A stretch of DNA of 64,000 nt, from positions 371,845-435,844 of the forward strand of contig CAWEKG010000002.1 in assembly GCA_963809595.1 (NCBI GenBank). Reading direction: 5' to 3'. Under the pieces are notes generated by a model. It had not been told where the DNA came from. It saw nothing but the letters and a program-made list of their open reading frames with translations, and did no database searches. Every line of letters begins with the position of its first letter. Within the stretch, counting starts at the first letter, position 1. Of this stretch, positions 31,960 to 63,911 are shown piece by piece. The position numbers and the translations under genes were made by a program. This stretch comes from an uncultured Chloroflexia bacterium. Lineage in GTDB: Bacteria; Chloroflexota; Limnocylindria; Limnocylindrales; CSP1-4.

Positions 31960-32752
31960 TCAGCTACCCCTTGGTCGTGACCGACTCGGCGACGATGCTC
32001 CGGCGCAACCTCCGGCGCATGCGCCGCTACCCCTCGCTCACCTTCTTCATCGCCGGCATGCCGGTGGTGTTCCTGCTCCTGTTCGTGTACGTCTTCGGCG
32101 GCACGCTCGGAGCCGGCCTGGGCGGCGTGTCCGGCGGTCGGGCCGAGTACGCGGCGTACGTCCTGCCCGGGATGCTCCTGATCACCGTCGCCGGCGCGGC
32201 CCAGGGGACCGCGATCTCGGTCGCCATGGACATGTCGGAGGGCATCATCGCCCGGTTCCGGACGATGGCCGTCGCGCGGGCCTCGGTCCTGACCGGCCAC
32301 GTCATCGGCAGCGTCATCCAGACGATGCTCGCCCTGGCCATCGTCATGGTGCGTCGCCCTGCTCATCGGCTTCCGGCCGACCACCGGCCCGGTCGAATGG
32401 CTCGCCGCGGTGGGCGATCCTCGCCCTCGCCGCGCTGGCGGTCACCTGGCTCTCGGTGGCGCTCGGCATGGTGACCGACAGCGTCGAGACCGCCAGCAAC
32501 CTGCCGATGTTCCTGATCATCCTGCCCTTCCTGAGCAGCGGGTTCGTCCCGACGCAGCTCGATGCCGGACGGTCTCTGCCTGGTTCGCCGAGAACCAGCC
32601 GTTCACGCCGGTGCATCGAGACGGTGCGCGGCCTCCTGCTCGGGACGCCGATCGGGAACAGCGGCGCGCTCGCGGTCGCCTGGTGCGTCGCGATCTCGAT
32701 CGTCGGCTACCTGTGGGCGACGCGCCTGTACGAGCGGGACCGGGCACGGTAG
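31956..32752 (+). CDS. DrrB-like ABC-2 permease, frameshifted
   Basis: LLLFVYVFGG, GIIARFRTM, FLSSGFVP, ENQPFTP. Confidence 0.88.
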
Positions 32753-32814
32753 CCGCAGCCGCCGTCGCGAACACGACAGCGTTCTCCGCACCGGACCTTG
32801 GTATCCTGCCGCCG

Positions 32815-34062
32815 GTGCGACCCCTGCTGGCCCGACCCGCCGAGACCATCGTCCCCGCGAGGCTCGGACGCAGTTTCCGGTGGCTCCTGGCGGCCACGAT
32901 CGTCAACAACGTCGGCGACGGCATCGTCCTCGCGGCCGGCCCGCTGCTCGTCGCGTCCCTGACGACCGATCCGTTCCTGGTGTCGCTGGCGGTCCTGAGC
33001 GAGTACCTCCCGGTCCTGCTATTCGGTGTCCTCGGCGGCGCCGCGGCCGACCGCTTCAACCGTCGCGGCATGGTCATCGTGGCCAATCTTGGGCGGGCCG
33101 TCGCGCTGATCGTCCTCGTCGCCACGATCGTCAGCGGGACCGTCGGCATCGCCATCGTCCTCGTCACGTTGTTCGTCCTGGGCACGGCCGAGACCTTCGC
33201 CGACTCCGCCAGCAGCACGCTCCTGCCGGGCATGGTGGCTCGCGAGGACCTCGGCATCGCCAACGCGCGGCAGCAGGGCGCCTTTCTGCTGACGAACCAG
33301 CTGGTGGCCCCGCCGATCGGCGCGTTCCTGTTCGCCGCGGGCACGGCGATCCCGTTCGCGACGAACGCGGTCTGCTTCGTACTCGGGGCGGTGCTCGTGT
33401 CGCGCGTCGTGACGAGCACCACGAACGAGCTGCGCGAGCGATCGAGCCTGCGGACGGAGATGGGGGAGGGGATCCGCTGGCTCCTCGCGCATCCGCCGAT
33501 GCGGACCCTGGCGCTGACGATCTTCACTTTCAACGTCACGTTCGGAGCCGCATGGTCGGTCCTCGTGCTCTACGCGAGCCAGCGGCTCGGCATGAGCGAC
33601 GTGGGGTTCGGGCTCCTGACAACGGCTGTCGCCGTGGGCGGCGTGATCGGGATCGTGTCGTATGGGCGATTGGCGCGACGCTTCTCACTGAGCGACATCA
33701 TGAGGGTGGGCCTGCTCATCGAGACCGCCACCCATCTATCCCTCGCCGTCACGACCTTACCCGTGGTCGCGCTCGCCACGCTGGTGGTCTTTGGGGCCCA
33801 CGGCTTCATCTGGGGCACGACATCGACGGTCGTGCGACAGCGGGCCGTGCCGGACGAGCTGCTCGGCCGGGTGACCGGCGTCTACCGCGTCGCGATCGTC
33901 GGCGGCCTGGTCATCGGCACGCCGATCGGGGGCCTGCTCGCCCGGACGTTCGGGATCACGGCCCCGTTCTGGTTCGGGTTCATCGGATCGGCGCTCCTCG
34001 TGGCGATCCTGTGGCGTCAATTCGACCTCATCGTTCACGCGGGCGAGGGGACCGGCGGCTGA
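32815..34062 (+). CDS. MFS transporter (DHA3/EntS-like)
   Basis: GAAADRFNRR motif A, 12 TM, QRAVPDELLGRV. Confidence 0.92.
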   Translation: MRPLLARPAETIVPARLGRSFRWLLAATIVNNVGDGIVLAAGPLLVASLTTDPFLVSLAVLSEYLPVLLFGVLGGAAADRFNRRGMVIVANLGRAVALIVLVATIVSGTVGIAIVLVTLFVLGTAETFADSASSTLLPGMVAREDLGIANARQQGAFLLTNQLVAPPIGAFLFAAGTAIPFATNAVCFVLGAVLVSRVVTSTTNELRERSSLRTEMGEGIRWLLAHPPMRTLALTIFTFNVTFGAAWSVLVLYASQRLGMSDVGFGLLTTAVAVGGVIGIVSYGRLARRFSLSDIMRVGLLIETATHLSLAVTTLPVVALATLVVFGAHGFIWGTTSTVVRQRAVPDELLGRVTGVYRVAIVGGLVIGTPIGGLLARTFGITAPFWFGFIGSALLVAILWRQFDLIVHAGEGTGG

Positions 34063-34167
34063 TCCGAGCCCGCCCCGGCCCTCAGCCCCCGCGAGGACCT
34101 CGCGCAGCGTCACGGCGGAGTCAACGTCCGGCCCGTAGTACGTGCGGGAGACGATGTTCTGAGCCAG

Positions 34168-35118
34168 CTAGCCTCGCCGTGGACGAGCCCGCCGACCGGC
34201 CAGCGCAAGTCCGAGACCGACCAGGAGCACTGCCACGATCGGGGCAACGGGCACCGACGGCGGTCGGCTGAGTGTCTCGCTCGTGTCCGTCGGCGGTGGC
34301 GTCACCGTGATCGAACCAGGGTCAGACGTCGCTGCAGCCGTCGCCGTGGGCGTCGCCGTAGGCGTCGCCGTCGACGTCGGCGTTCCAGTCGGGGCTCCAG
34401 TGGGCGTGGGTGTCGGCGTCGGCGTCGGCGTGGGTGTCGGCGTCGGCGTCGGCGTGGGCGTCGGCGTGGGTGTCGGCGTAGGCGCCGGAGTGATCGTGAG
34501 GCCCACGTCGTCGAGGAAGTTCCCGATCGACGCGCTCCCGGACGCCACGCTCAGGGCACGGAGGGCCAACCGCGTGCAGGTCTGGCCGGGCGGGACGAGA
34601 TATGTGTCCGTGTGCGTGCCCCAGGCAGCCGTTCCGTCGGTCAGCCCCGGCGACGTGTAATCCCAACCGGCATTGGTGTTGGGATTCGCGACGGCAGCGT
34701 CGCCGATGAGGACCTGCATGGTGTCGTTGCCGCCGCGTCCTCGATGCTGGAGTGTCCACGTCCAGGTGGCGCCCGGGTTGGATACCACGTCCTGGTAGAG
34801 GGTCGCCGCAGAGTTGGCGTTGATCTCGGAGAAGGCATTGCCTTGAGCGGCCGGCACACCCAGGAACCCGGTCCCCCAGATCTCGATCTGGTTGAGCGAG
34901 TCGGTCGTCTGCCAGGGTGGCACCGAGGCGGCCGGGAACAGGGTGTAGGTGTTCGCGGCGACCGGCGGGGTCTCGAAGCCGCCGTCCAGCAGGGACGTCG
35001 CGGAGCCGCATGCCGCAAGAGCGGGGCGGGCGCCGGCCCACGACATGGAACCGAGACACAGGGTGACGACGGCCAGAGTCGTGATCGCGCCACGACGATG
35101 CACGAACGATCTCCCCAA
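34168..35118 (-). CDS. Secreted surface protein: DUF642/CBM-like domain, PT linker, C-terminal PPTDT-TM-Arg tail
   Basis: Signal peptide, DGGFETP, NFLDDV, (PT)n, PPPTDT plus hydrophobic helix plus RRARPRR. Confidence 0.75.
   Translation of the reverse strand: MGRSFVHRRGAITTLAVVTLCLGSMSWAGARPALAACGSATSLLDGGFETPPVAANTYTLFPAASVPPWQTTDSLNQIEIWGTGFLGVPAAQGNAFSEINANSAATLYQDVVSNPGATWTWTLQHRGRGGNDTMQVLIGDAAVANPNTNAGWDYTSPGLTDGTAAWGTHTDTYLVPPGQTCTRLALRALSVASGSASIGNFLDDVGLTITPAPTPTPTPTPTPTPTPTPTPTPTPTPTPTGAPTGTPTSTATPTATPTATAAATSDPGSITVTPPPTDTSETLSRPPSVPVAPIVAVLLVGLGLALAGRRARPRRG
34400..34482 (-). repeat. Hexanucleotide repeat encoding a (PT)n linker
   Basis: Runs of GGCGTC/GGCGTG/GGTGTC. Confidence 0.9.
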
Positions 35119-35302
35119 GGACCCTCACGTCCGGTGGACGACCGGGCACGGTCCTCCCTCGGAGCAGGTGTCCATCGTCTCACGGGTCGACCGGAAGGAC
35201 CAGTCCAATTCCGACCGGACAGCGGCTCGTCGCGAGGGGACGACGATGAGCGGCGTGACCGACGGGCGCCGATGAGCAGCGGCCGTGACGTACACTCCGC
35301 CG

Positions 35303-37334
35303 ATGTCGAGCCGTCGCGTTCTGACCCTGGGTGTCGTCGTCGTGCTGGCCGGCGCCTGCGGCGGGCAGGCGATCGTCTCACCGTCCGCTCCGACCACGAC
35401 CGCGGCCGTGTCGGGCGAGCCCGCCAGCCCAGCCGTGTCGCCGGCCGGCTCCGGCAGCGCCGATGCCGACGCGCTGCTGGCCGCTGCCCTGGCCCACTTC
35501 GGGCAGTCCCTGGGCACCGATGATCCGAACCGCCGGGCGGTGATCGATGCGATGGACCTCCGCACGGTCCTCGGAGCGGATGCCGAGCACATCCTGGCGG
35601 TGGCGACCGCCGCCGAGGGCGCGGCTGCCGCGAAGGCCCAGCTCAAGCCCCTCTTCGGCGAAGCGGGTCGGTCGACACCCGGCGGTTGGATGATCCCCGA
35701 AGCGGCCGTCCTCGCCTCGATCCCGGCCTATCCGCCTCCGCTGTCCGACACTCGCGACTACCTGTCCTCGAGCCTCGACTACATCGGCAGGGAGGGATCG
35801 AACACTGCCCACGAGGACACCGGGACGATGACGGCATCCGCGACCGACGGAGCTGTCGCGTCATCGAGCGAGGTGCGGACGACGCTCGACGCCACCATCA
35901 ACGGATCCGACGTCAAGGTCGTGGCCGACCGTGACGTGCATGTCACGGCGACCGACACCAAGATCCGGATCCCCGCTCCTCGACCAGCACATCCGCTACC
36001 AGGTCACCGCCGAGCTCGATGTCTGCCCGAGCGCAGCCGGCATCGTGCTGGCCTCGAGCGGCCATGCCTACACGGCGGAATCGAGCACCTTCGCCGGCGC
36101 GGGCGGACGGGTCGGTTCGCACAACACGGCCAGCCTGACGACGAGCAGCACGTTCAAGGGCCAGGTGGACGATCAGGCGAACCTGGGCAACGTCGCCCAG
36201 GACGCCAACGTCGACGGCAAGTTCCATCGGACCTCGTCGGCCCCGGGCGGCCCGGAGGCGTCGCACGAAGGCACCTATACCACGAGCGTGACCGGCATCA
36301 ACGACGGGGTCCCGACGGCGCACGAATGGTCGATCACCGGGAGCGACTGGTCGGGGATCGGGTCGGGTATCGGGTCCGTGCAGGTCGATCGGACGGGTGA
36401 CGCGACCGCCGACCAGATCGGCGACGCCGCCGGCTCGGCGGCCGTCGACTGGGCGACGATCGACTCGTCCTTCGTCGAGGCGCAGAGGCTCTGGCGCGAT
36501 ACCCGCTGCGTGATCGTGACCGCGCCGACGTACATCCCGTTGAGCGCCTACGCCAACAAGGCGCGACCCACCCACACCGAGGAGGTCGGGAAGGGAAGCA
36601 CGACCGAATTCGAGGTGGGGACCGGGCATCGCTTCGATCAGAAGGTGACCGCCCTGATCAAGGCGACGCTCGATGGCAAGGAGAGCCTCGATCCGAAGGA
36701 GGTCCCGAAGCCGCCGGGGACCCTGACCTACGTCGCCTCGGACGAGGACGACCAGACCGCGATCGTCGACCTCATCTCGACCTCGAAACAGGGGATCGGC
36801 CGCCAACGGCTGCTGTTCCACACGAGCGACGAGAAGCTCAAGGTCAGCATCAACGGCAAGATGACGACCAGCGGGTTCGGCGTCTCCTACACGACGACGG
36901 TCTCCGTGGCCGGGATCCTGCTGACCAAGCAATCGGACGGCAGCTTCCTGGGCTCGGCTCCGGTGACCACGAAGATCCACCTCAACGGCGACATCCCGTG
37001 TCCCGCCCCGTTCAAGGAACAGGGCGGCACGCTCACGCTCCGGGCGACCCATCCGCCCCCCGTTGACCCGAACACGCCCAGTCCGTGGACGATCACCTTC
37101 GACAAGACCAGCAAGCTCACGGTGACGGGGAGCTGCCTCGGGATCAGCCTCGGCAACATGCTCCAGCTCGGCACGAGCGGGGCGACCGGCGGGTTCATGT
37201 TCGTCCTCGGCGATGTCGAGATCCCGGACGCGGGCGGCTCGGCGACCGTCCGGAAGACCGTGCCCGTCGGCGCGTCCCAGAACGCCATCGACGCGACCGT
37301 GAAGGCCCAGGTCATCAAGAACGTCCGCCCGTAG
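35303..37334 (+). CDS. Large hypothetical lipoprotein, frameshifted near 35965
   Basis: Lipobox LAGAC; two consecutive coding-like frames. Confidence 0.7.
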
Positions 37335-37382
37335 GTCGGATCGGCTTCGAGCGGCCGATCCCGATGGACGGGTCGAGTCCCC

Positions 37383-38258
37383 TCAGGCCCCGGCGAGGAC
37401 CTCACGCAGCCTGGCCGCGAAGGCGTCCGGCTCGCCGGCCTGGCCGTACTCGCCGCCGAGGAAGCCGGCGTGGCCGCTGGGGAAGACCACCGGCACGGTG
37501 CCGAGCCGTTCGGCGACGGCCTCCGCGCCGCGATGCGCCATCTCACCTTCGGACTCCGCGCCGGCAGCCAGGACGATCCGGGTCGACGCCGTCCGCAGCA
37601 CCTCGAAGTTGGGCTCGTAATGGGTGCAGGTCAGGATGTTCTGACCCAGCAGCGGGTCGGTCCGGGTGCCGTCGTCCGCGGCCGGCAGGCCGAACATGGC
37701 GGGATCGGGCCCCGGCTGCTTGGCGAACTCCGCGGTCATCGGCCCCTTGTGGCTCACGACGGCGATGAACTGGGCCATGCCCGCCCCGAAGCCGCTGCGC
37801 TGGTACGTGTCGCTGATCGCCTGGGTCACCGCCATGGCACCCTCGCGGTCGGGCAGGATCGACGCGAGCGGTGGCTCGTGGGCGACGAGCGTGCGAACCT
37901 GCTCCGGGTGCGCCGCCACCAGGGCGAGGGCGTTCACCGCCCCACCGCTGCTGGCGAAAAGGTCGACCGGCCCCCGGCCGAGCTCGGCGATGATCCGATG
38001 AAGGTCGTCGGCATGCTGCTCCGGGGTCGACGGGCTGGCCGGGTCGGCCTTCGTGCTCCGCTCGACGCCCCGGGGGTCGTAGGTCACCACGGTGCGGTCG
38101 GGAAAGTGGCTCGCCAGCGTGACAAACCCGCCGGCGCCCATCGGCGACCCGATGAGCAGCAGCACCGGGGCAGGGGAGTCGGTCTCGCGAACGTCGTAGG
38201 TCAGGGTCGCGCCGGGCACGTCCAGGGTGCGCGTCGTCGGCTCGGTGAGCGTGGTCAT
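37383..38258 (-). CDS. Alpha/beta hydrolase
   Basis: YDPRG, ASSGG nucleophile elbow, HEPP, GHAGF. Confidence 0.92.
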   Translation of the reverse strand: MTTLTEPTTRTLDVPGATLTYDVRETDSPAPVLLLIGSPMGAGGFVTLASHFPDRTVVTYDPRGVERSTKADPASPSTPEQHADDLHRIIAELGRGPVDLFASSGGAVNALALVAAHPEQVRTLVAHEPPLASILPDREGAMAVTQAISDTYQRSGFGAGMAQFIAVVSHKGPMTAEFAKQPGPDPAMFGLPAADDGTRTDPLLGQNILTCTHYEPNFEVLRTASTRIVLAAGAESEGEMAHRGAEAVAERLGTVPVVFPSGHAGFLGGEYGQAGEPDAFAARLREVLAGA

Positions 38259-57776: not shown

Positions 57777-59963
57777 TCAGCGTCCGGCGAGGACCCGGAG
57801 CCGGGCCAGCGACGCCTCGACCGACGGATCGGTCCGGGTCGGGACGACGCGCTCCAGCAGGGTCCGGGCGACCTCGACCGGCGGCGCCGGCTGACGCTCG
57901 AGGAAGGTGACCAGGCGGTCGAGCGCGTCCGGTGCCATGTACAACCGCCGGCTATCGAACGAGACCCGGGAGGGGTCGATCTTGAAGACGTAGCTGTCGA
58001 GGGGTTCGTGGCCGGGGACCGGGAACGTCCAGTGGGCGACCTGCTCGATCCCCGTGCTCGAGGCAAGCGCGGGGATGATCGTGCCGGCAGCCGTCGACAG
58101 CCCGGTCGTGTAGACCCAGTACTGGACACCGCCCGCCCCCAGCTGGCGCTCCAGCCAGGCGGCTCGGTAGGCCTGATACTCGTTCACGTTGCGCGGGGCG
58201 GTGTCCACCGCGATCCAGTCGTCGGCCGGGTCCTCGCCGACCCGGATGAGACCCTCCGGCGCCGCCGGATCGGCGATCGCGATCCGCGCCCGGACCTGGA
58301 CCGCCTCGGCGCGGCCGCGCAGCCCGAGGGCCATCTCGTACCCCAGGAACGAGGGGAAGGCGACCTTCGCGCCCGGCGGGACGTTGTCCTGGAGCCAGCG
58401 CGTGACCGTCGTCACCGCGATGCCCCGTCCCAGGGAGTCGGGCTGGGTCCGCCGGACATGGACGGTCAGCGTGGCCGTGGCGACAACGAGCGCGATGACG
58501 AGCATCGCGTCGACCGCCAGGTCGGGCAGGCGGATCCGCTCACCTCGGCCGGTGCGTCGCACGAGCCAGGGAAGCGATCCGACGGCCGCCCCGACCACGG
58601 CCCCACCGATCGCGGCGCGGGTGGTCCAGCTCGGACCGACCATGTTCGCGGCTACCAGACCCGCCGCCAGCCCGATGAGACCACCGATCGGAACGAGCAG
58701 GAGCGGCGGCCGGACCACGACCAGGCGCTCGACGGCCCAGATCGCCCCGACCGAGGCGATCCCGACGAGGATCGCGATCTGGGCCAGGTAGTTCCGGGGT
58801 GGCTCGCCCACCGCGATCACCAGGAGGATGAGCGGCGCCGCGCACAGGGTCGCAAGGAAGAGGTCCGCGATCGCCTGGCGCTGGGCCGGGTCACGGAGCC
58901 GGAAGAAGGCCACCACACCCAGCAGGACGCCGACGATCCCGAACACCGCCACCGTCCGGAACGGCACGAGCCAGGTCGCCGCGTACGCCCGGAACTGGAC
59001 CAGGTCGATGAGGGGCCCTCCCTTGAGCCGGGCGGTCCGGGCGAAGACGAGGGTGAGCAGAACGAACCAGGCGAACGCCGACCCCCAGGCGAGGAACGCT
59101 CGGCCGTGGCGCTGCCAGAACGACGGCGCGGCCTCGGTGGCTCGGCGGGCGATGGCCCGCCCGGTCGAGCTCGCCGCCAACCGACCGGCGCTGAGCCCGA
59201 GGACGACCGCCAGGACGATTCCCGCCGTCAGGGGGAGCAGCGTCCAGACGGGCGAGTCGAGTCGGTAGACCCGGTGGCCCAGGACGGCGTACATCGCGAA
59301 CCACCACGACAGCCCGATCGAGGCCACCAGCAGGGTCCAGGCGCCGACCCGGGCGAGGATCACCCAGGGCCGGCGCCACAGGACACCGGCCACGAACGGG
59401 ATCGGCGCGAACGGGAGCGCCACCTCCTTGACCAGGAACGCGACGGCGAAGGTCAACCCCGCGGCGATCGCCCAGCGCGTCGAGCCGCGACGCACGGCCT
59501 CGAACCCGATGACGACGTAGAGGAGGGCGAGGGCCGCTGCCGGGACGTCGAGCCGGGCGGTCCGCGAGAGATCATGGAGGTACGGGATCGCCAGGATCCC
59601 GGCGGCGGCGAGGCCGCCCGCGGCCGGCCGGACTCGCCAGCCGAGCAGGCCACCCAGCCCGACGACGGCCGCCCCGCTGATCGCCCCGAGCAGTCGACCC
59701 CAGGCCCACGGATCGATCCCCAGCAATGCGTCGGGTGCCGCGAGGACCCCTGACCACAACGGTGAATGGGGGATGAAGGTGGCCCCGAAGACGGTCGTGG
59801 GACCGAGCCCGGCCCAGAGGCTGTAGCCGACCCCGAGGTACTTCTGTTCGTCGAAGCTCGGATAGAAGCCCGGCACCGCCAGCGCGAGAGCCAGGAAGAC
59901 CACGACGGAACTGCCGAGCACGACGGCGGACAGGCGGCGCTCGGAGGGCAGGTCAAGAGGCAC
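57777..59963 (-). CDS. ArnT/PMT-like GT-C glycosyltransferase
   Basis: FDE loop, HSPL, ARLD, FLVKE, many TM helices. Confidence 0.8.
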   Translation of the reverse strand: MPLDLPSERRLSAVVLGSSVVVFLALALAVPGFYPSFDEQKYLGVGYSLWAGLGPTTVFGATFIPHSPLWSGVLAAPDALLGIDPWAWGRLLGAISGAAVVGLGGLLGWRVRPAAGGLAAAGILAIPYLHDLSRTARLDVPAAALALLYVVIGFEAVRRGSTRWAIAAGLTFAVAFLVKEVALPFAPIPFVAGVLWRRPWVILARVGAWTLLVASIGLSWWFAMYAVLGHRVYRLDSPVWTLLPLTAGIVLAVVLGLSAGRLAASSTGRAIARRATEAAPSFWQRHGRAFLAWGSAFAWFVLLTLVFARTARLKGGPLIDLVQFRAYAATWLVPFRTVAVFGIVGVLLGVVAFFRLRDPAQRQAIADLFLATLCAAPLILLVIAVGEPPRNYLAQIAILVGIASVGAIWAVERLVVVRPPLLLVPIGGLIGLAAGLVAANMVGPSWTTRAAIGGAVVGAAVGSLPWLVRRTGRGERIRLPDLAVDAMLVIALVVATATLTVHVRRTQPDSLGRGIAVTTVTRWLQDNVPPGAKVAFPSFLGYEMALGLRGRAEAVQVRARIAIADPAAPEGLIRVGEDPADDWIAVDTAPRNVNEYQAYRAAWLERQLGAGGVQYWVYTTGLSTAAGTIIPALASSTGIEQVAHWTFPVPGHEPLDSYVFKIDPSRVSFDSRRLYMAPDALDRLVTFLERQPAPPVEVARTLLERVVPTRTDPSVEASLARLRVLAGR

Positions 59964-59992
59964 GGTCGGCCGTATGGTAGCGCCCGTCGGGG

Positions 59993-60384
59993 GGGACAAC
60001 GAAACGCCCGAAGGAACCACTCGGTCCGTCGGTCCGTCTCCGCCGATGCAAGCACCTGCGACTCGGTCTCCGGCGAGCCCCGGTCCGTAGCTTTCGCCGC
60101 TGATGCAAGCACCTGCGACGCCGCTCTCGGTCCGTCATGGCCCCTTCGGGCAAGACCTACAGTACGGCCCCGTCGTCGTCCCTGGCTACGGGGTTATCCA
60201 CGAACTTGGGGTCCGCTCCGAGGAATCTGCGCTCGTTCTCCACGGTCCGTCCACGAGGCCGGGTCCGGGGACCCGGGCGGGGAGCTCGCGATCAGGGCTC
60301 CAGGGGCCACTCGGCGGGTTCGAGCAGGATCGGCAGGCCACGCCGGTCGAGGACGAGGGGGGTCGCCGTTCCGGCGGCGGGGGG
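59993..60384. repeat. ~390-bp direct repeat, copy 1 (copy 2 at 60721-61110)
   Basis: Near-identical at offset 728; differs near 60271-60280 vs 60999-61007; includes the 3' end of the 61019-61594 gene. Confidence 0.95.
59996..60151 (-). ncRNA. Putative structured sRNA, long form, copy 1
   Basis: TACTGT -10; 5' GCCCGAAGGGGCCA pairs with 3' UGGUUCCUUCGGGC plus U-rich tail; two CUUG hairpins; four ACGGACCG. Confidence 0.7.
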
Positions 60385-60385
60385 C

Positions 60386-60482
60386 ACAACGAAACGCCCG
60401 AAGGAACCTCCGGTCCGGCCGTCGAGTCCGCTGATGTCGCCACCTGCGATCTCAAGACGTCGGTCCCTTGGCCCCTTCGGGC
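60386..60482 (-). ncRNA. Putative structured sRNA, short paralog
   Basis: Same promoter, closing stem and tail; one hairpin with GCGA tetraloop; two GGACCG. Confidence 0.7.
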
Positions 60483-60524
60483 AAGACCTACAGTACGCCG
60501 GAGCGACCGGTGGCCGCTACCGGG

Positions 60525-60586
60525 TTATCCACGAGCTTCCCTGACAACAGGCCGTTTCTCGGGTGGTTATCCACCGCTCGCCCACC
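60525..60586. promoter_or_regulatory. DnaA-box-like array upstream of an sRNA promoter (equivalents at 60194-60255 and 60922-60983)
   Basis: TTATCCACG 60525, TTATCCACC 60567, TCGCCCACC 60578. Confidence 0.6.
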
Positions 60587-60723
60587 GAACCGCGCTCGAG
60601 GTCGATCGGGGATGGTCGGGGCCCGGCCAGGCCGGCCCGGACCAGGGTCCGATCGGCGGCGCGCCTGGACGGTCGCCCCATCCCCTCCCCCGACGGGCGC
60701 CCCCGCCCGCCCCGTCGGCGGGG

Positions 60724-60879
60724 ACAACGAAACGCCCGAAGGAACCACTCGGTCCGTCGGTCCGTCTCCGCCGATGCAAGCACCTGCGACTCGGTCTCCG
60801 GCGAGCCCCGGTCCGTAGCTTTCGCCGCTGATGCAAGCACCTGCGACGCCGCTCTCGGTCCGTCATGGCCCCTTCGGGC
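60724..60879 (-). ncRNA. Putative structured sRNA, long form, copy 2
   Basis: Identical to 59996-60151. Confidence 0.7.
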
Positions 60880-61018
60880 AAGACCTACAGTACGGCCCCG
60901 TCGTCGTCCCTGGCTACGGGGTTATCCACGAACTTGGGGTCCGCTCCGAGGAATCTGCGCTCGTTCTCCACGGTCCGTCCACGAGGCCGGGTCCGGGGAC
61001 TCGTTCGGGAGCTCGCGA

Positions 61019-61594
61019 TCAGGGCTCCAGGGGCCACTCGGCGGGTTCGAGCAGGATCGGCAGGCCACGCCGGTCGAGGACGAGGGGGGTCGCCGTTCCG
61101 GCGGCGGGGGGGTCGAAGGCCAGGTCCCAGGTCGAGACACCGGCTCTCGACACGAGGACCGCCACCGGCGCCGGGCGGAGGTCGCTCCCGATCCGGATCC
61201 CCTCGAGGCGGGCCCGGGCACCGGACCACAGCGCGGCCGCGGACGGCCCCATGACCGCGGCATCGACCACCGGCGATCGGTCCACCACGAGAAGATGGCT
61301 GTCCGACCAGGGGAAGGTGAGGTGACGGACCCCGGCGGTCGTGACCACGTTCCCGTGGAGGGTGGTGGCGTCGCCCGAAGGATGGACGGTCAGCAGACCG
61401 GCCCCGCTGGCGATCTCGAGTCGGCCGATCCGACCATCCGGGGCGAGCTCGAGCAGGAGCGATCGGACGACTCGTCCGCGCCGGGTCAGCAGCTCCCGCC
61501 AGCGCCGGCCGCGTCGCCCATCGGCGAGCGACCAGGTGACCGCCTCGCCGGTCGCCAGGCGGCCAGTGCCGGCCAATCGAAGGGGGTCGGCCAT
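61019..61594 (-). CDS. Hypothetical protein downstream of hflX
   Basis: ATG 8 nt after the hflX stop; MADPLR...WPLEP. Confidence 0.7.
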   Translation of the reverse strand: MADPLRLAGTGRLATGEAVTWSLADGRRGRRWRELLTRRGRVVRSLLLELAPDGRIGRLEIASGAGLLTVHPSGDATTLHGNVVTTAGVRHLTFPWSDSHLLVVDRSPVVDAAVMGPSAAALWSGARARLEGIRIGSDLRPAPVAVLVSRAGVSTWDLAFDPPAAGTATPLVLDRRGLPILLEPAEWPLEP

Positions 61595-61602
61595 CGGTCG
61601 GG

Positions 61603-62898
61603 TCAGACTTCCGCGGCGTGCCGGGCGACCGCCTCGAGCTCGCCGGCCAGCGCCGGAGCGACCCGGCCGCGGACATGGACACCGTCGCCGCGATAGTCGA
61701 TGTCGACCGACCCTCGCTCGCGGACCCGGGCCAGCAGGTCGCCGGCCGCGTAGGGCACGTCGACCTCGATGTCGACCCAGAGCGAGGAGAGGACGGCCGC
61801 CAGCTGGGTCCGGAGCGCGTCGAGGCCGAACCCCGTGACCGCGCTGATCGGGACCGTGCCCCCGACGATCGGTGTCGGTCGGTCGCCGTCGAGGGCGGCC
61901 GGGTCGACAAGATCGGTCTTGTTGCGGGCCACCAGCCGGGGCTTCTCGCCCGCGCCGAGCTCGTCGAGGACCGCCTGGACGGTGGCCCGGTGCTCCGTCG
62001 CGTGGGGGTCGGAGGCGTCGATGACTTCGAGAAGGACGTCGGCCCGGTTGACCTCCTCGAGGGTCGCTCGGAACGCGTCGACGAGCTGGTGCGGGAGCTT
62101 GTGGATGAACCCCACCGTGTCGGTCACGATCGCGGTCTGCCCGTCCCCCAGGCGGACCTGCCGGCTCGTCGGGTCGAGGGTGGCGAAGAGCTTGTCCTCG
62201 GCCAGCGCGACCTCGCTTCCGACGAGGGCGTTGAGGAGGGTCGACTTCCCGGCGTTGGTGTAGCCGACGATGCCGACCGTGGGCATCAGCCCGCGATCGC
62301 GCCCCCGGGCGGCGGTGGCCCGCTGCTGGCGGACCTGCTCCACCCGCTCCTTCATCTTCTTGATCCGCTCCCGGACGATCCGCCGGTCGGTTTCGAGCTG
62401 AGACTCGCCGGGGCCCCGGGTGCCGATCCCGCCGCCGGTCCGCGACAGGTGGGTCCACATCCGGGTGAGCCGCGGGAGCTGGTATTCGAGCTGGGCGAGC
62501 TCCACCTGGAGACGACCTTCGTGGGTCCGGGCGTGGAGGGCGAAGATGTCGAGGATGAGCCGGCTCCGGTCGATGACCTTGACCTTGAGCAGCTCTTCGA
62601 GGGCTCGCTGCTGGGCCGGTGAGAGCTCGTCGTCGGCGATGAGCACGTCGAAGCCGGTCTCGCTCTTCGCGGCGACCAGCTCGGCTGCCTTGCCCTTGCC
62701 CACGTACCAGTTCGGGTCGACGTGGCGTCGGTTCTGCCATTCGGCACCCACCACGTCGGCACCGGCGGTCAGGGCCAGGTTGGCCAGCTCGGCCAGGGAG
62801 TCCTGGGCGGTCCAGCCGTCCTCGGTGCCGGTGTCGACCGCGAGCAGGAAGGCCCGCTCGACGGGCGGAGCGAGATCGATGAGGTCGGAACGGGTCAT
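61603..62898 (-). CDS. hflX: GTPase HflX
   Basis: LQVELAQL, RGPGESQLETDRR, GYTNAGKST, LFATLD, DTVGF. Confidence 0.97.
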   Translation of the reverse strand: MTRSDLIDLAPPVERAFLLAVDTGTEDGWTAQDSLAELANLALTAGADVVGAEWQNRRHVDPNWYVGKGKAAELVAAKSETGFDVLIADDELSPAQQRALEELLKVKVIDRSRLILDIFALHARTHEGRLQVELAQLEYQLPRLTRMWTHLSRTGGGIGTRGPGESQLETDRRIVRERIKKMKERVEQVRQQRATAARGRDRGLMPTVGIVGYTNAGKSTLLNALVGSEVALAEDKLFATLDPTSRQVRLGDGQTAIVTDTVGFIHKLPHQLVDAFRATLEEVNRADVLLEVIDASDPHATEHRATVQAVLDELGAGEKPRLVARNKTDLVDPAALDGDRPTPIVGGTVPISAVTGFGLDALRTQLAAVLSSLWVDIEVDVPYAAGDLLARVRERGSVDIDYRGDGVHVRGRVAPALAGELEAVARHAAEV

Positions 62899-62963
62899 CT
62901 CCCGGGAAGGATACCCGCCCCGGACGGCGACCCCGCAGGCCCCCGCTGCGGAAGGAGCCGTCC

Positions 62964-63911
62964 TCAGCCCGCGGCGAGGAGCTCCTCGACGATCCGGAAG
63001 GCCGCCTCATCCGCGGGGCCGTCGGTGACGTCCAGCCAGGTCATCGCGGTCTCCCGGCGGAACCAGGTCGCCTGCCGTTTCGCGAACGCGACGTTGCGGT
63101 GGGTGTCGAGCGAGATCGCGCCCTCCAGACCGATACCGCCGTCGAGCACGGCCCAGGCTTCGCGATAGCCGATCGCCGAGAAGGCCGGCAGGCCGGGGTC
63201 GTAAAGGGCCCGGAGCGAGGCCGCTTCGTCGAGCAGACCGGCAGCGAACTGTGCCCGCGCCCGGGTCGCGAGCCAGGCCCGGTGGACGGTGGGGTCCACC
63301 CGAAGCCCGAGCCAGGCGATGGGGCCGGGGTACCCCCGGGGCTCCGGCATCGGGGCGTCGCCGAGTAGGGTCGCGATCTCGAGGGCGCGGACCACCCGGC
63401 GCGGGTTCTTCTGGTCGATGACGTCGGCGCGCCCGGGGACGATCGCCCGGAGCCGCTCGACCAGCGCGGGCAGGCCGTCCCGCTCGAGGTCGACCTCGAG
63501 GGTCGTGCGCAGGACCGAGTCGTGGGGCAGGGCGTCCACGTCCATGCCCTGTCCGACAGCCCGAAGATAGAGCCCGGTCCCGCCTACGAGCAGCCCGATA
63601 CGACCCTCGACCGCGAGACGGGCGAGCACCCGATCGATCTCTCGGACGAAGTCCGCCACGGTGAACGGCTGGTCCGGATCGACCAGGTCGAGACCGTGAT
63701 GGGGCACCCGCGCCCGCTCCCCCGGGGTGGCTTTGGCCGTCCCGATGTCGAGGCCCCGGTAGACCTGGCGCGAGTCGGCCGAGATGATCTCGGCGGTCAC
63801 ACCGCGCCCGGCGAGCCGCTCGGCCAGGCGGATGGCGAGACCGGTCTTGCCCGTCGCCGTCGCTCCGCCGATGACGACGAGGGGCGGTCGCGGTGCGGCG
63901 TCCGTGCTCAG
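62964..63911 (-). CDS. miaA: tRNA dimethylallyltransferase
   Basis: GATATGKT, SADSRQVY, DIGTAK, VGGTGLY, AIGY, AKRQATWF; probable CTG start. Confidence 0.95.
   Translation of the reverse strand: MSTDAAPRPPLVVIGGATATGKTGLAIRLAERLAGRGVTAEIISADSRQVYRGLDIGTAKATPGERARVPHHGLDLVDPDQPFTVADFVREIDRVLARLAVEGRIGLLVGGTGLYLRAVGQGMDVDALPHDSVLRTTLEVDLERDGLPALVERLRAIVPGRADVIDQKNPRRVVRALEIATLLGDAPMPEPRGYPGPIAWLGLRVDPTVHRAWLATRARAQFAAGLLDEAASLRALYDPGLPAFSAIGYREAWAVLDGGIGLEGAISLDTHRNVAFAKRQATWFRRETAMTWLDVTDGPADEAAFRIVEELLAAG

What the first reader, a model, noticed from the sequence alone, without database searches (positions are those of the whole stretch)
59996..60879. Tandem family of modular structured small RNAs downstream of miaA-hflX
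Three minus-strand units (156, 97 and 156 nt) each start 7 nt after TACTGT. Their 5' end GCCCGAAGGGGCC pairs with the 3' GGUUCCUUCGGGC (including G-U pairs) and is followed by GUUUCGUUGU. Inside is a repeated hairpin UCGC-A-GGUG-[loop]-CAUC-R-GCGG. Its loop is CUUG in the long form (2 hairpins) and GCGA (GNRA) in the short form (1 hairpin), with different but still paired basal stems (CGUC/GACG, GAG/CUC). The hairpins are flanked by apparently unpaired GGACCG motifs (4 versus 2). Swapping one stable tetraloop for another argues for selection on RNA structure. I do not recognise the family. Repeated modules suggest a protein-titrating sponge (ACGGA fits the CsrA ANGGA motif) or a 6S-like decoy. 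No hfq lies between miaA and hflX.
Basis: partly seen in the sequence, partly recalled or inferred. Interest (0 to 1): 0.9.

Follow-up and report, generated by a model that had tools for sequence, protein, structure and literature searches.

The report
New small RNA family behind DnaA-box arrays
Three neighbouring genes make small, tightly folded RNAs of a previously undescribed family found in one group of uncultured soil and sediment Chloroflexota, and each gene sits behind sites that look like those of the replication initiator DnaA, so RNA regulation may be tied to DNA replication.

Summary
Three minus-strand units (60879-60724, 60482-60386, 60151-59996) each have a promoter-like region, an invariant 13-bp stem joining the 5' and 3' ends, and a U-rich tail. 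No Rfam family matches.

Covariation supports the fold. The stem carries one arm in the short form and two in the long form. Each arm is a long helix studded with mismatches and capped by a tetraloop. The GGACCG motifs are not unpaired: they pair with each other.

The stem pattern occurs in 114 of 137 sampled genomes of the window's own family and in 1 of 263 from the other four families of its class. Record titles name Limnocylindrales/Chloroflexota. The shared stem carries several different inner modules. This genome has five such genes.

Arrays of GTGGA boxes lie at fixed positions (-50, -83/-92, -103/-114) upstream of the genes: 37 per kb against 2.3 genome-wide. The same box variants fill the region beside dnaA.

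CsrA, Ro60 and Hfq were not found here, so the CsrA-sponge reading fails, and the 6S reading has no support.

Best reading: trans-acting, probably protein-binding, small RNAs under DnaA control. Function and expression are untested.

The parts
60724..60879 (-). RNA gene A, long two-arm form (146 nt to the end of the closing stem at 60734, then tail GUUUCGUUGU). Closing stem strands 60879-60867 and 60746-60734; arm I about 60862-60809; arm II about 60807-60751.
   Evidence: Sequence; fold; consensus structure and pair counts on 19 long forms.
60386..60482 (-). RNA gene B, short one-arm form (87 nt to the end of the closing stem at 60396, then tail). Closing stem strands 60482-60470 and 60408-60396; GCGA loop.
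   Evidence: Covariance model R1 scores it 86.0 bits on the sense strand and 36.2 on the antisense strand.
59996..60151 (-). RNA gene C, long form, identical to A. Closing stem strands 60151-60139 and 60018-60006.
60887..60916 (-). Promoter-like region of A: -35-like TAGCCA (60916-60911), 18-nt spacer, -10 TACTGT (60892-60887), start 7 nt later.
   Evidence: Consensus of 186 genes is ttg.cc-N18-ta..gT. The strict E. coli-type scan finds none here.
60490..60519 (-). Promoter-like region of B: TAGCGG (60519-60514), 18-nt spacer, TACTGT (60495-60490).
60159..60188 (-). Promoter-like region of C, a copy of that of A.
60922..60983 (-). Array of three DnaA-box-like sites upstream of A: CGTGGACGG 60983-60975 (-103), CGTGGAGAA 60972-60964 (-92), CGTGGATAA 60930-60922 (-50).
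60525..60575 (-). Two DnaA-box-like sites upstream of B: GGTGGATAA 60575-60567 (-92) and CGTGGATAA 60533-60525 (-50).
60194..60255 (-). Array of three DnaA-box-like sites upstream of C, a copy of that of A (60255-60247, 60244-60236, 60202-60194).
60711..61111 (.). Direct repeat, copy 1: the last 90 nt of ORFx, the box array, the promoter and RNA A.
   Evidence: families D1 and D2, 99-100% identical.
59983..60384 (.). Direct repeat, copy 2: a fragment of the ORFx 3' end, the box array, the promoter and RNA C.
   Evidence: ORFx residues 164-193 match a second time at 100%.
61019..61594 (-). ORFx, 191 aa, a conserved DUF1089/PF06475-like protein lying between hflX and the RNAs. It is context, with no shown link to the RNA.
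61603..62898 (-). hflX (context).

Best explanation
The three units are independent genes for small structured RNAs. They belong to a previously undescribed family that is specific to one lineage.

Gene layout:
- An array of 2-4 DnaA-box-like GTGGA sites at fixed distances from the start.
- A sigma-70-type promoter.
- An RNA whose first 13 nt and last 13 nt form a nearly invariant stem with two G-U pairs.
- That stem plus the U-rich tail is also the intrinsic terminator.

Inner modules:
- The window holds the 'arm' type at the conserved hflX-ORFx locus, one arm in B and two in A and C.
- Each arm is a helix of about 25 bp, broken every 3-4 bp by a single purine-purine mismatch. It has a two-fold symmetric CGG-A-CCG/CGG-A-CCG base and a structural tetraloop.

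How they most likely work:
- Almost nothing in these RNAs is single-stranded and the modules are repeated. I therefore infer that they act in trans by binding a protein, probably a dimer, as decoy or scaffold, rather than by base pairing.
- I infer that their synthesis is set by DnaA bound to the upstream arrays.

What is shown and what is inferred:
- Shown: the sequence anatomy, the structure with covariation, the distribution, the synteny, and the box arrays with their likeness to the boxes beside dnaA.
- Inferred: transcription, DnaA binding, the direction of control, and the protein partner.
For: Structure:
- Long form: 98.3% of 949 cells paired, 9 of 50 pairs with compensatory change, 0 of 500 shuffles reach the covariation score, and slid controls give 25-49% paired.
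- Short form: 99.3% paired, 5 of 30 pairs compensatory, 0 of 500 shuffles.

Strand:
- The G-U pairs work only on the minus strand.
- Model R1 scores sense hits at 86-110 bits within the genus against 33-49 for the antisense strand.
- Three terminator-like sites lie on the minus strand at the unit ends, against 0.6 expected.

Distribution:
- BLAST finds the unit in 23 of 24 genomes of the same family and 0 of 16 of the sister family.
- The stem pattern is in 114 of 137 genomes of the window's family, 0 of 16, 0 of 92, 1 of 153 and 0 of 2 of the other four families of the class. The reversed-pattern control gives 0.
- 74 of the 80 record titles shown name Chloroflexota or Limnocylindrales.

Synteny:
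- An ORFx-like ORF lies upstream of 57 of 65 arm-type genes, and the HflX C-terminus upstream of 53 of 65.

Concerted evolution:
- The two long copies are 100% identical in 11 of 15 genomes of the genus. Between genomes the mean identity is 86.8%.

Box arrays:
- GTGGA at -50 in 180 of 186 genes.
- Three main layouts: F-103 F-92 F-50 (46 genes), R-114 R-103 F-83 F-50 (37) and F-92 F-83 F-50 (31).
- Density is 37.4 boxes per kb at -125..-41. It is 0.5 further upstream, 1.2 inside the RNA, 2.0 downstream, 0.9 upstream of 50 tRNA genes and 2.34 genome-wide.

Link to DnaA:
- The 450 nt after dnaA in 24 genomes of the family hold 169 boxes of the same variants (GTGGA[TC]AA and GTGGACGG). I count clusters in 22 of the 24.
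- Similar clusters lie upstream of parA and rsmG.
- Box pairs 11 bp apart start to start match the E. coli in vivo preference for pairs spaced 2-3 bp (PMC11317965, abstract and one passage).
Against: - There is no expression evidence of any kind.
- The strict E. coli-type promoter scan finds nothing here. The -35-like hexamers of the window's genes (TAGCCA, TAGCGG) are poor matches.
- DnaA binding is inferred from sequence only. The -50 box has C before GTGGA in 73% of genes, whereas the boxes beside dnaA have T, G and C about equally, so another GTGGA-binding factor is possible.
- No partner protein was identified.
- The 186-gene set was collected with a pattern that fixes the closing stem, so the stem's invariance outside the genus is partly built in.
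- Other members of the family carry 13-nt conserved loops that look like base-pairing seeds, so the family may not share one mode of action.
Confidence: 0.55

Rival explanations
1. They are base-pairing regulatory sRNAs (sibling sRNAs) that repress or activate mRNAs through short seeds.
For: Other members of the family display a conserved 13-nt hairpin loop, in 1-3 copies, which looks like a seed. Tandem sibling sRNAs are a known kind (recalled).
Against: The window's arm-type RNAs have almost no single-stranded sequence. Loops are interchangeable tetraloops (CUUG, GCGA, UUUA) and unpaired runs are 1-5 nt. A genome scan for the complement of the conserved loop found 1 site outside the RNA genes themselves, about what chance gives by my own estimate of roughly 1. 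Hfq was not found.
Confidence: 0.2
2. They are cis-acting leaders or attenuators. The closing stem is a terminator that a shared factor could prevent from forming, by holding the 5' strand, so that transcription reads into the downstream gene.
For: All five genes of this genome are co-oriented with the next gene. The gap is about 36 nt for C, and about 140 and 80 nt at the two other loci. The 5' strand can form a small hairpin of its own (read from the sequence).
Against: A and B are followed by another promoter and RNA gene, not by a coding gene. Downstream genes differ between loci (glycosyltransferase-like, a nucleoside phosphorylase-like gene by my own reading, a membrane protein). No conserved antiterminator pairing was seen.
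Confidence: 0.1
3. The loci are mainly DNA elements that hold or titrate DnaA, in the manner of DnaA-box clusters, and the RNA is secondary.
For: By my count the five RNA genes of this genome carry 16 GTGGA boxes, against 8 in the 450 nt beside dnaA.
Against: Compensatory changes and the conserved G-U pairs show selection on the RNA itself.
Confidence: 0.08
4. They are a CsrA/RsmA sponge, a 6S-like RNA polymerase decoy or a Y-RNA-like partner of Ro60.
For: ACGGA motifs are repeated. The 5' and 3' ends pair as in Y RNAs. The shape is rod-like.
Against: CsrA was not found in this genome and occurs in 3 of 41 genomes of the family. The TROVE domain of Ro60 was not found in this genome, which is about 80% complete. 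The 6S model gives no hit and there is no central bubble. No Rfam match exists.
Confidence: 0.04
5. They are a MITE/REP-like repeat, a terminator repeat or a short coding gene with no RNA function.
For: The two strands of the closing stem resemble terminal inverted repeats. An ORF runs through unit A.
Against: There are only 5 copies per genome, at loci conserved between genera. The distance to the promoter and boxes is fixed. Indels of 1-2 nt among homologues break any reading frame, and the ATG is missing in 3 of 19 long forms.
Confidence: 0.03

Closest known systems
Sibling or tandem small-RNA families, for example the LhrC, Qrr and CcsR 'cuckoo' RNAs (recalled, not tested here)
   Same: Several paralogues per genome, some in tandem. 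Each has its own promoter and terminator, and motifs are repeated within and between copies.
   Different: Here the shared part is the closing stem and the upstream control region, not the seed. The inner modules differ completely between paralogues, and the window's type has no evident seed.
CsrB/RsmZ-type protein sponges
   Same: Repeated modules in one RNA suggest binding of several protein copies. It may work like this class.
   Different: There is no CsrA, the GGA motifs are base-paired, and no Rfam model matches. It is not a member.
Y RNAs / YrlA with Ro60 (recalled)
   Same: The 5' and 3' ends form a conserved stem that carries variable inner modules.
   Different: No TROVE-domain protein was found in this genome, there is no tRNA-like module, and no Rfam match.
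CcnA of Caulobacter, a non-coding RNA driven by a cell-cycle master regulator (PMC8959179; seen only as a search listing with the start of its abstract)
   Same: A small RNA whose synthesis would be tied to a cell-cycle master regulator.
   Different: The listed abstract centres on CtrA and GcrA, not DnaA, and that study covers a single RNA. No sequence or structural likeness was tested.
DnaA-box clusters and the DnaA regulon (datA, the gidAB-parAB promoter; PMC11317965 abstract and one passage; PMC13438810 and PMC4585315 seen as listings with the start of their abstracts)
   Same: Arrays of DnaA-box-like sites outside the origin, with pairs 11 bp apart. The same box variants lie beside dnaA and upstream of parA and rsmG in this lineage.
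   Different: Among the 20 papers that search returned (15 listed), none is about small-RNA genes as DnaA targets. Here every paralogue of one RNA family carries the array at fixed positions.

Membership tests
CsrB/RsmX-Z sponge of CsrA | Many GGA motifs exposed in hairpin loops or single strands | tested here: not met
   GGACCG lies in CGG-A-CCG/CGG-A-CCG helices. Some of these pairs show compensatory change, for example columns 25-66 with GC in 16 and AU in 3 sequences.
CsrB/RsmX-Z sponge of CsrA | CsrA encoded by the organism | tested here: not met
   PF02599 gives 0 hits in this genome, which is about 80% complete, and hits in 3 of 41 genomes of the family. The RNA pattern is in 114 of 137.
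6S RNA | A rod of about 180 nt with a large central bubble, and a match to the 6S model | tested here: not met
   The consensus folds have one or two arms on a closing stem and only 1-5 nt internal loops. RF00013 gives no hit in the genome, and no Rfam hit lies in the window.
Y RNA / YrlA | A Ro60 (TROVE) protein in the genome, usually nearby | tested here: not met
   PF05731 gives 0 hits in this genome, which is about 80% complete. The neighbours are hflX, a DUF1089-like ORF and a PMT_2-like gene.
Any described RNA family (Rfam 15) | Covariance-model match | tested here: not met
   0 matches at gathering score in the 64-kb window. Only one chance-level hit (E 5.3, plus strand, between units A and B) at E<=10 in 59800-61100. 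0 at E<=1 for the two other loci of this genome.
Independent small-RNA gene (promoter + RNA + intrinsic terminator) | A conserved promoter at a fixed distance and a terminator stem with a U-rich tail | tested here: met
   The consensus of 186 genes is ttg.cc-N18-ta..gT, with the start 7 nt later. Three terminator-like sites lie at the unit ends against 0.6 expected. The strict sigma-70 scan finds none. Transcripts were not observed.
Structured RNA under selection | Base pairs kept through compensatory changes | tested here: met
   9 of 50 and 5 of 30 pairs show changes on both sides. 0 of 500 shuffles reach the covariation score. Slid controls are far lower.
DnaA regulon member | Clustered DnaA boxes in the promoter region | tested here: met
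   158 of 186 genes have 3 or more GTGGA boxes at -125..-41. The variants equal those beside dnaA in 24 genomes of the family. Pairs are 11 bp apart, which fits.
DnaA regulon member | DnaA binds the site and changes transcription | not testable with these tools
   Needs EMSA, DAP-seq or ChIP, and reporter assays.
MITE/REP repeat | Many dispersed copies, variable insertion sites | tested here: not met
   This genome has 5 copies. Each type sits at a locus conserved between genera.
Riboswitch or attenuator leader | A constant downstream gene and an alternative antiterminator fold | tested here: inconclusive
   The genes are co-oriented with the next gene. However, A and B are followed by further RNA genes, downstream genes differ, and no antiterminator was seen.

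The most novel reading that the evidence does not exclude
The replication initiator DnaA directly commands a regulon of 3-5 structured small RNAs per genome in this Chloroflexota family. Together these genes hold about twice as many DnaA boxes as the region beside dnaA: 16 against 8 in this genome by my count. They would then both soak up DnaA and, when bound, release decoy or scaffold RNAs. That would couple the state of replication initiation to post-transcriptional or protein-level control, a link not described for DnaA in the papers I could search.
Probability: 0.3. Interest if true: 0.85.

Novelty: new variant of a known kind. Interest (0 to 1): 0.65.

Why it matters
- Limnocylindrales-type Chloroflexota are common in the soil, wetland and sediment metagenomes named in record titles and run labels. 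I know of no cultured model for them (recalled), and my searches found no paper on their RNA regulators.
- This family gives them a first, well-supported set of small-RNA genes.
- The design is unusual: one fixed stem that serves as end clamp and terminator, carrying interchangeable modules.
- If the upstream arrays are truly DnaA sites, this would be a direct line from the replication initiator to a family of small RNAs. It can be tested with purified DnaA and synthetic DNA, without cultivation.
- The symmetric, mismatch-studded arms are a defined bait for finding an unknown RNA-binding protein.

Tried and rejected
Readings tested and rejected:
- CsrA sponge: rejected.
- Ro60/Y RNA: no TROVE protein in this genome.
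- Hfq: not found in this genome.
- 6S: no hit.
- MraZ as the GTGGA-binding factor: the mraZ promoter of this genome carries three GAAGTGG repeats with a 10-nt period, a different motif.
- Coding reading: 1-2 nt indels break the frame.

Leads that went nowhere:
- Mimicry of the 16S rRNA 3' end by the conserved 13-nt loop of other family members. Only some variants resemble it, and the assembly holds no 16S gene to compare with.
- Likeness of GGACCG-containing stretches to a conserved 23S rRNA loop. This was considered from memory only. It was dropped because the flanking letters are not conserved among relatives.
- Target search for the loop complement: 1 site outside the RNA genes themselves, about chance level.
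- Search for the apical hairpin elsewhere in the genome: only the RNA genes, plus an unrelated promoter-like motif.
- ORFx as an RNA-binding partner. It has the fold of a DUF1089 protein (PDB 2h1t, E 4e-7, TM-score 0.53), and 4 of 32 homologues match PF06475. Nothing points to RNA binding except an invariant GRRGRRWR stretch.
- Five genomes of the family without a pattern hit: ORFx was not found in 4, and 1 gave a weak match. They either lack the locus or are too divergent.
- A cross-genus MAFFT alignment of 38 one-arm forms lost the lower arm, so pair counts were done on the genus-level alignments only.

Expression and earlier notes:
- No RNA holder was listed among public runs.

Literature:
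- No paper holds both 'Limnocylindr' and 'sRNA'.
- The closing-stem strings occur in one unrelated paper.
- A first, broader search was uninformative.
- Supplements of PMC11317965 were not seen and might list DnaA-bound RNA genes in E. coli.
Full report
THE OBSERVATION

Reading the minus strand of 59700-61200 confirms the three units exactly as described. They lie at 60879-60724 (A), 60482-60386 (B) and 60151-59996 (C).
- Each starts 7 nt after TACTGT.
- Each opens with GCCCGAAGGGGCC and closes with GGUUCCUUCGGGC followed by GUUUCGUUGU.
- The two ends pair over 13 bp, including two adjacent G-U pairs.

A and C are identical. They are part of a direct repeat (61111-60711 and 60384-59983, 99-100% identical, 728 bp apart). 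The repeat also copies the last 90 nt of the upstream ORF, the promoter-like region and three upstream boxes.

Single-sequence folds beat shuffles on the minus strand (z -3.7 and -4.0, 0 of 200 shuffles as good). Unit A does not do so on the plus strand (z -1.0). The short unit B folds about as well on both strands, as a plain hairpin will.

A simple scan finds three terminator-like sites, all on the minus strand at the unit ends, against 0.6 expected. It finds no E. coli-type promoter.

NOT A KNOWN RNA FAMILY

- Rfam 15 gives no match at gathering score in the whole window.
- At E<=10 in 59800-61100 there is only one chance-level hit (E 5.3, plus strand, between units A and B).
- The two other loci of this genome give nothing at E<=1.
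- Full-text searches found no paper combining 'Limnocylindr' with 'sRNA'.
- They found no relevant paper holding the closing-stem strings.

STRUCTURE

Nineteen long forms from 16 genomes of the genus (alignment A1, mean column identity 90%) fold into the closing stem plus two arms, at columns 19-72 and 74-130. Sixteen short forms (A2) fold into the stem plus one arm.

Pair counts:
- Long form: 98.3% of 949 cells paired, 9 of 50 pairs changed on both sides, 0 of 500 shuffles reach the covariation score. Sliding the partners gives 25-49% paired.
- Short form: 99.3% paired, 5 of 30 pairs changed on both sides, 0 of 500 shuffles.

These controls are not probabilities, because related sequences inflate them. 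Even so, the gap to the slid versions is large.

So the long form is a duplication of the arm of the short form. Each arm has three parts:
- A base in which CGG-A-CCG on the 5' side pairs with CGG-A-CCG on the 3' side, a two-fold symmetric helix with an A-A mismatch.
- Helical blocks of 3-4 bp separated by single mismatches.
- An apical hairpin.

The apical loop is CUUG in 14 of 16 short forms and GCGA in 2. In other genera it is UUUA, CCUG or five-letter loops, while the stem below co-varies (GGUG/CAUC, GGAG/CUUC, GGUA/UAUC, GGUG/CACC). The loops are thus structural caps, not recognition sequences.

Indels of 1-2 nt and the loss of the ATG in 3 of 19 long forms exclude a coding reading.

DISTRIBUTION

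BLAST finds the unit in 23 of 24 genomes of the same family and 0 of 16 of the sister family.

A pattern for the two strands of the closing stem, with 40-140 nt between them, was run over 401 genomes of the class:

| Group | Genomes with a hit |
|---|---|
| Window's own family | 114 of 137 |
| Four other families of the class | 0 of 16, 0 of 92, 1 of 153, 0 of 2 |
| Reversed-pattern control | 0 |

Of the 80 rows shown, 74 are titled Chloroflexota, Chloroflexi, Chloroflexia, Limnocylindrales or Anaerolineaceae, and 6 bear other names. I take those 6 to be mis-binned contigs or chance hits, which I did not check.

The genome of the window (3.1 Mb, 72% G+C, 4 contigs, about 80% complete) has five such genes: A, B and C plus one each on contigs 1 and 4.

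A SHARED SCAFFOLD WITH DIFFERENT CARGO

From 199 loci I collected 186 distinct genes. My rough motif sorting gives these types:

| Type | Genes |
|---|---|
| Conserved 13-nt hairpin loop (G-N-GAUC-R-CAUCAA), 1-3 copies | 84 |
| Arm type | 65 |
| Second loop type | 22 |
| CUAGUGA type, which I read as an arm variant | 10 |
| Fifth type | 5 |

Because this set was gathered with a pattern that fixes the stem, the stem's invariance outside the genus is partly built in. Within the genus, where retrieval was by BLAST, the stem is invariant or nearly so in all 35 aligned sequences.

Each type keeps its own locus across genera. An ORFx-like ORF lies upstream of 57 of 65 arm-type genes, and the HflX C-terminus upstream of 53 of 65. 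The loci were too short to see more. Downstream lie GtrA- or PMT-like glycosyltransferase genes.

ORFx (61019-61594, 191 aa) is a real, conserved protein.
- It has no Pfam hit of its own.
- 4 of 32 homologues match PF06475.
- A confident model (pLDDT 93.7) resembles the DUF1089 protein PA1994, PDB 2h1t (E 4e-7, TM-score 0.53).
- Nothing ties it to RNA beyond its position.

CONCERTED EVOLUTION

The long-short-long order is kept through the genus. The two long copies are 100% identical in 11 of 15 genomes, 98.6% in 3 and 86.9% in 1. Long copies of different genomes average 86.8%. The identity extends 76-240 nt upstream in 14 of the 15; in the 86.9% genome it stops after 2 nt. Gene conversion between the flanking copies is the simplest account.

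THE UPSTREAM REGION

This is the most unexpected result. GTGGATAA occurs only 12 times in the genome, and 5 of those lie about 50 nt upstream of the five RNA genes.

Across the 186 genes, GTGGA sits at these positions:

| Position | Orientation | Genes |
|---|---|---|
| -50 | forward | 180 |
| -83 | forward | 110 |
| -92 | forward | 120 |
| -103 | forward | 60 |
| -103 | reverse | 52 |
| -114 | reverse | 56 |

Three layouts dominate: F-103 F-92 F-50 (46 genes), R-114 R-103 F-83 F-50 (37) and F-92 F-83 F-50 (31).

Box density:

| Region | Boxes per kb |
|---|---|
| -125..-41 upstream of the RNA genes | 37.4 |
| Further upstream | 0.5 |
| Inside the RNA | 1.2 |
| Downstream | 2.0 |
| Upstream of 50 tRNA genes | 0.9 |
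| Genome-wide | 2.34 |

158 of the 186 genes have three or more boxes. The box reads T-[CG]-GTGGA-[TC]-AA, and the reverse ones read TT-[GA]-TCCAC-[AC]. That is the DnaA-box 9-mer printed in the passage, or its G+C-rich variant.

ARE THEY DnaA BOXES?

- dnaA lies on contig 3. The 450 nt after it hold eight GTGGA boxes.
- In 24 genomes of the family the same region holds 169 boxes, with clusters in 22 of 24. Typically there are three forward GTGGA-[TC]-AA boxes about 21 nt apart, followed by reverse GTGGACGG-type boxes.
- These are the same two variants as upstream of the RNA genes.
- Similar clusters precede genes I read as parA and rsmG from their first residues. Such sites are described for another bacterium in an abstract I saw only in a listing (PMC13438810).
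- The paired boxes at -103/-92 and -114/-103 are 11 bp apart start to start, that is 9-mers 2 bp apart. In E. coli, DnaA binds in vivo preferentially to pairs 2-3 bp apart (PMC11317965, abstract and one passage).
- MraZ is excluded as the binder: its own promoter carries a different repeat.

Against the DnaA reading: the -50 box prefers C before GTGGA (73%), while the boxes beside dnaA show T, G and C about equally. No binding was measured.

WHAT THE RNAs DO

This is inference. The arm-type RNAs of the window are almost wholly helical, with interchangeable loops, so base pairing with mRNAs is unlikely for them. Repeated, two-fold symmetric helices with conserved purine-purine mismatches suit a protein, perhaps a dimer, bound once (B) or twice (A, C).

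Ruling out the named candidates:
- CsrA: 0 hits here and 3 of 41 genomes of the family.
- Ro60 and Hfq: not found in this genome.
- 6S: shape and model do not fit.

The weak -35-like hexamers of the window's genes, with a box centred near -46, would fit activation by DnaA. That is a guess.

Alternatives kept open are base pairing (more likely for the loop-type relatives), an attenuator role of the closing stem, and a mainly DNA-level role in holding DnaA.

VERDICT

This is a real family of structured small RNAs not described in the databases and papers I searched. Its modular design is unusual, and its likely tie to DnaA is unreported in what I could search. Expression and function remain untested.

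Noticed in passing
window 61019-61594 (-): ORFx is a 191-aa conserved protein encoded 9 nt after the hflX stop. It has the DUF1089/PF06475 fold, an invariant GRRGRRWR stretch and a WPLE C-terminus. It lies between hflX and the arm-type RNAs across many genera. Its function is unknown.
   Followed up: partly
window 60280-60384 (-): A 105-nt copy of the ORFx 3' end (30 codons plus the stop region) sits after RNA B. It is a by-product of the 728-bp-spaced duplication.
   Followed up: yes
window 61019-63010 (-): A 663-aa ORF overlaps hflX in another frame. Only its last 191 codons (ORFx) are real. This shows how misleading long ORFs are at 72% G+C.
   Followed up: yes
G000 contig 3, 96900-97390 (locus L049/L206): Probable oriC directly after dnaA: three forward boxes about 21 nt apart, then five reverse boxes. 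The layout recurs in 22 of 24 genomes of the family.
   Followed up: partly
G000 contig 2 about 93760-93860; contig 3 about 36700-36770; contig 1 about 482450-482530; contig 2 about 791960-791990; contig 3 about 505005-505035: Further GTGGA-box clusters. Two lie upstream of genes I read as parA and rsmG from their first residues. The targets of the others were not identified.
   Followed up: partly
G000 contig 2, 109830-109895 (locus L207): The mraZ promoter is followed by three GAAGTGG repeats with a 10-nt period, presumably the MraZ operator.
   Followed up: no
G000 contig 1 about 521748, contig 3 about 149968, contig 4 about 169942: The motif CCGGTGCTAGCATCGG recurs in intergenic DNA, once just upstream of a tRNA gene. 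It is probably an extended -10 promoter element of this lineage.
   Followed up: no
whole assembly G000: No 16S rRNA gene was found with three short universal motifs, so the rRNA operon seems to be missing from this 4-contig assembly.
   Followed up: no
loci such as L088 (loop-type RNA relatives): A thyX gene (thymidylate synthase, PF02511) lies within about 2 kb of 31 of 84 loop-type RNA genes, mostly on the opposite strand. In this genome a gene I read as a purine nucleoside phosphorylase follows the contig-1 RNA.
   Followed up: no
window about 32000-38000: GC skew changes sign from negative to positive here. The skew is weak throughout the genome and was not interpreted.
   Followed up: no
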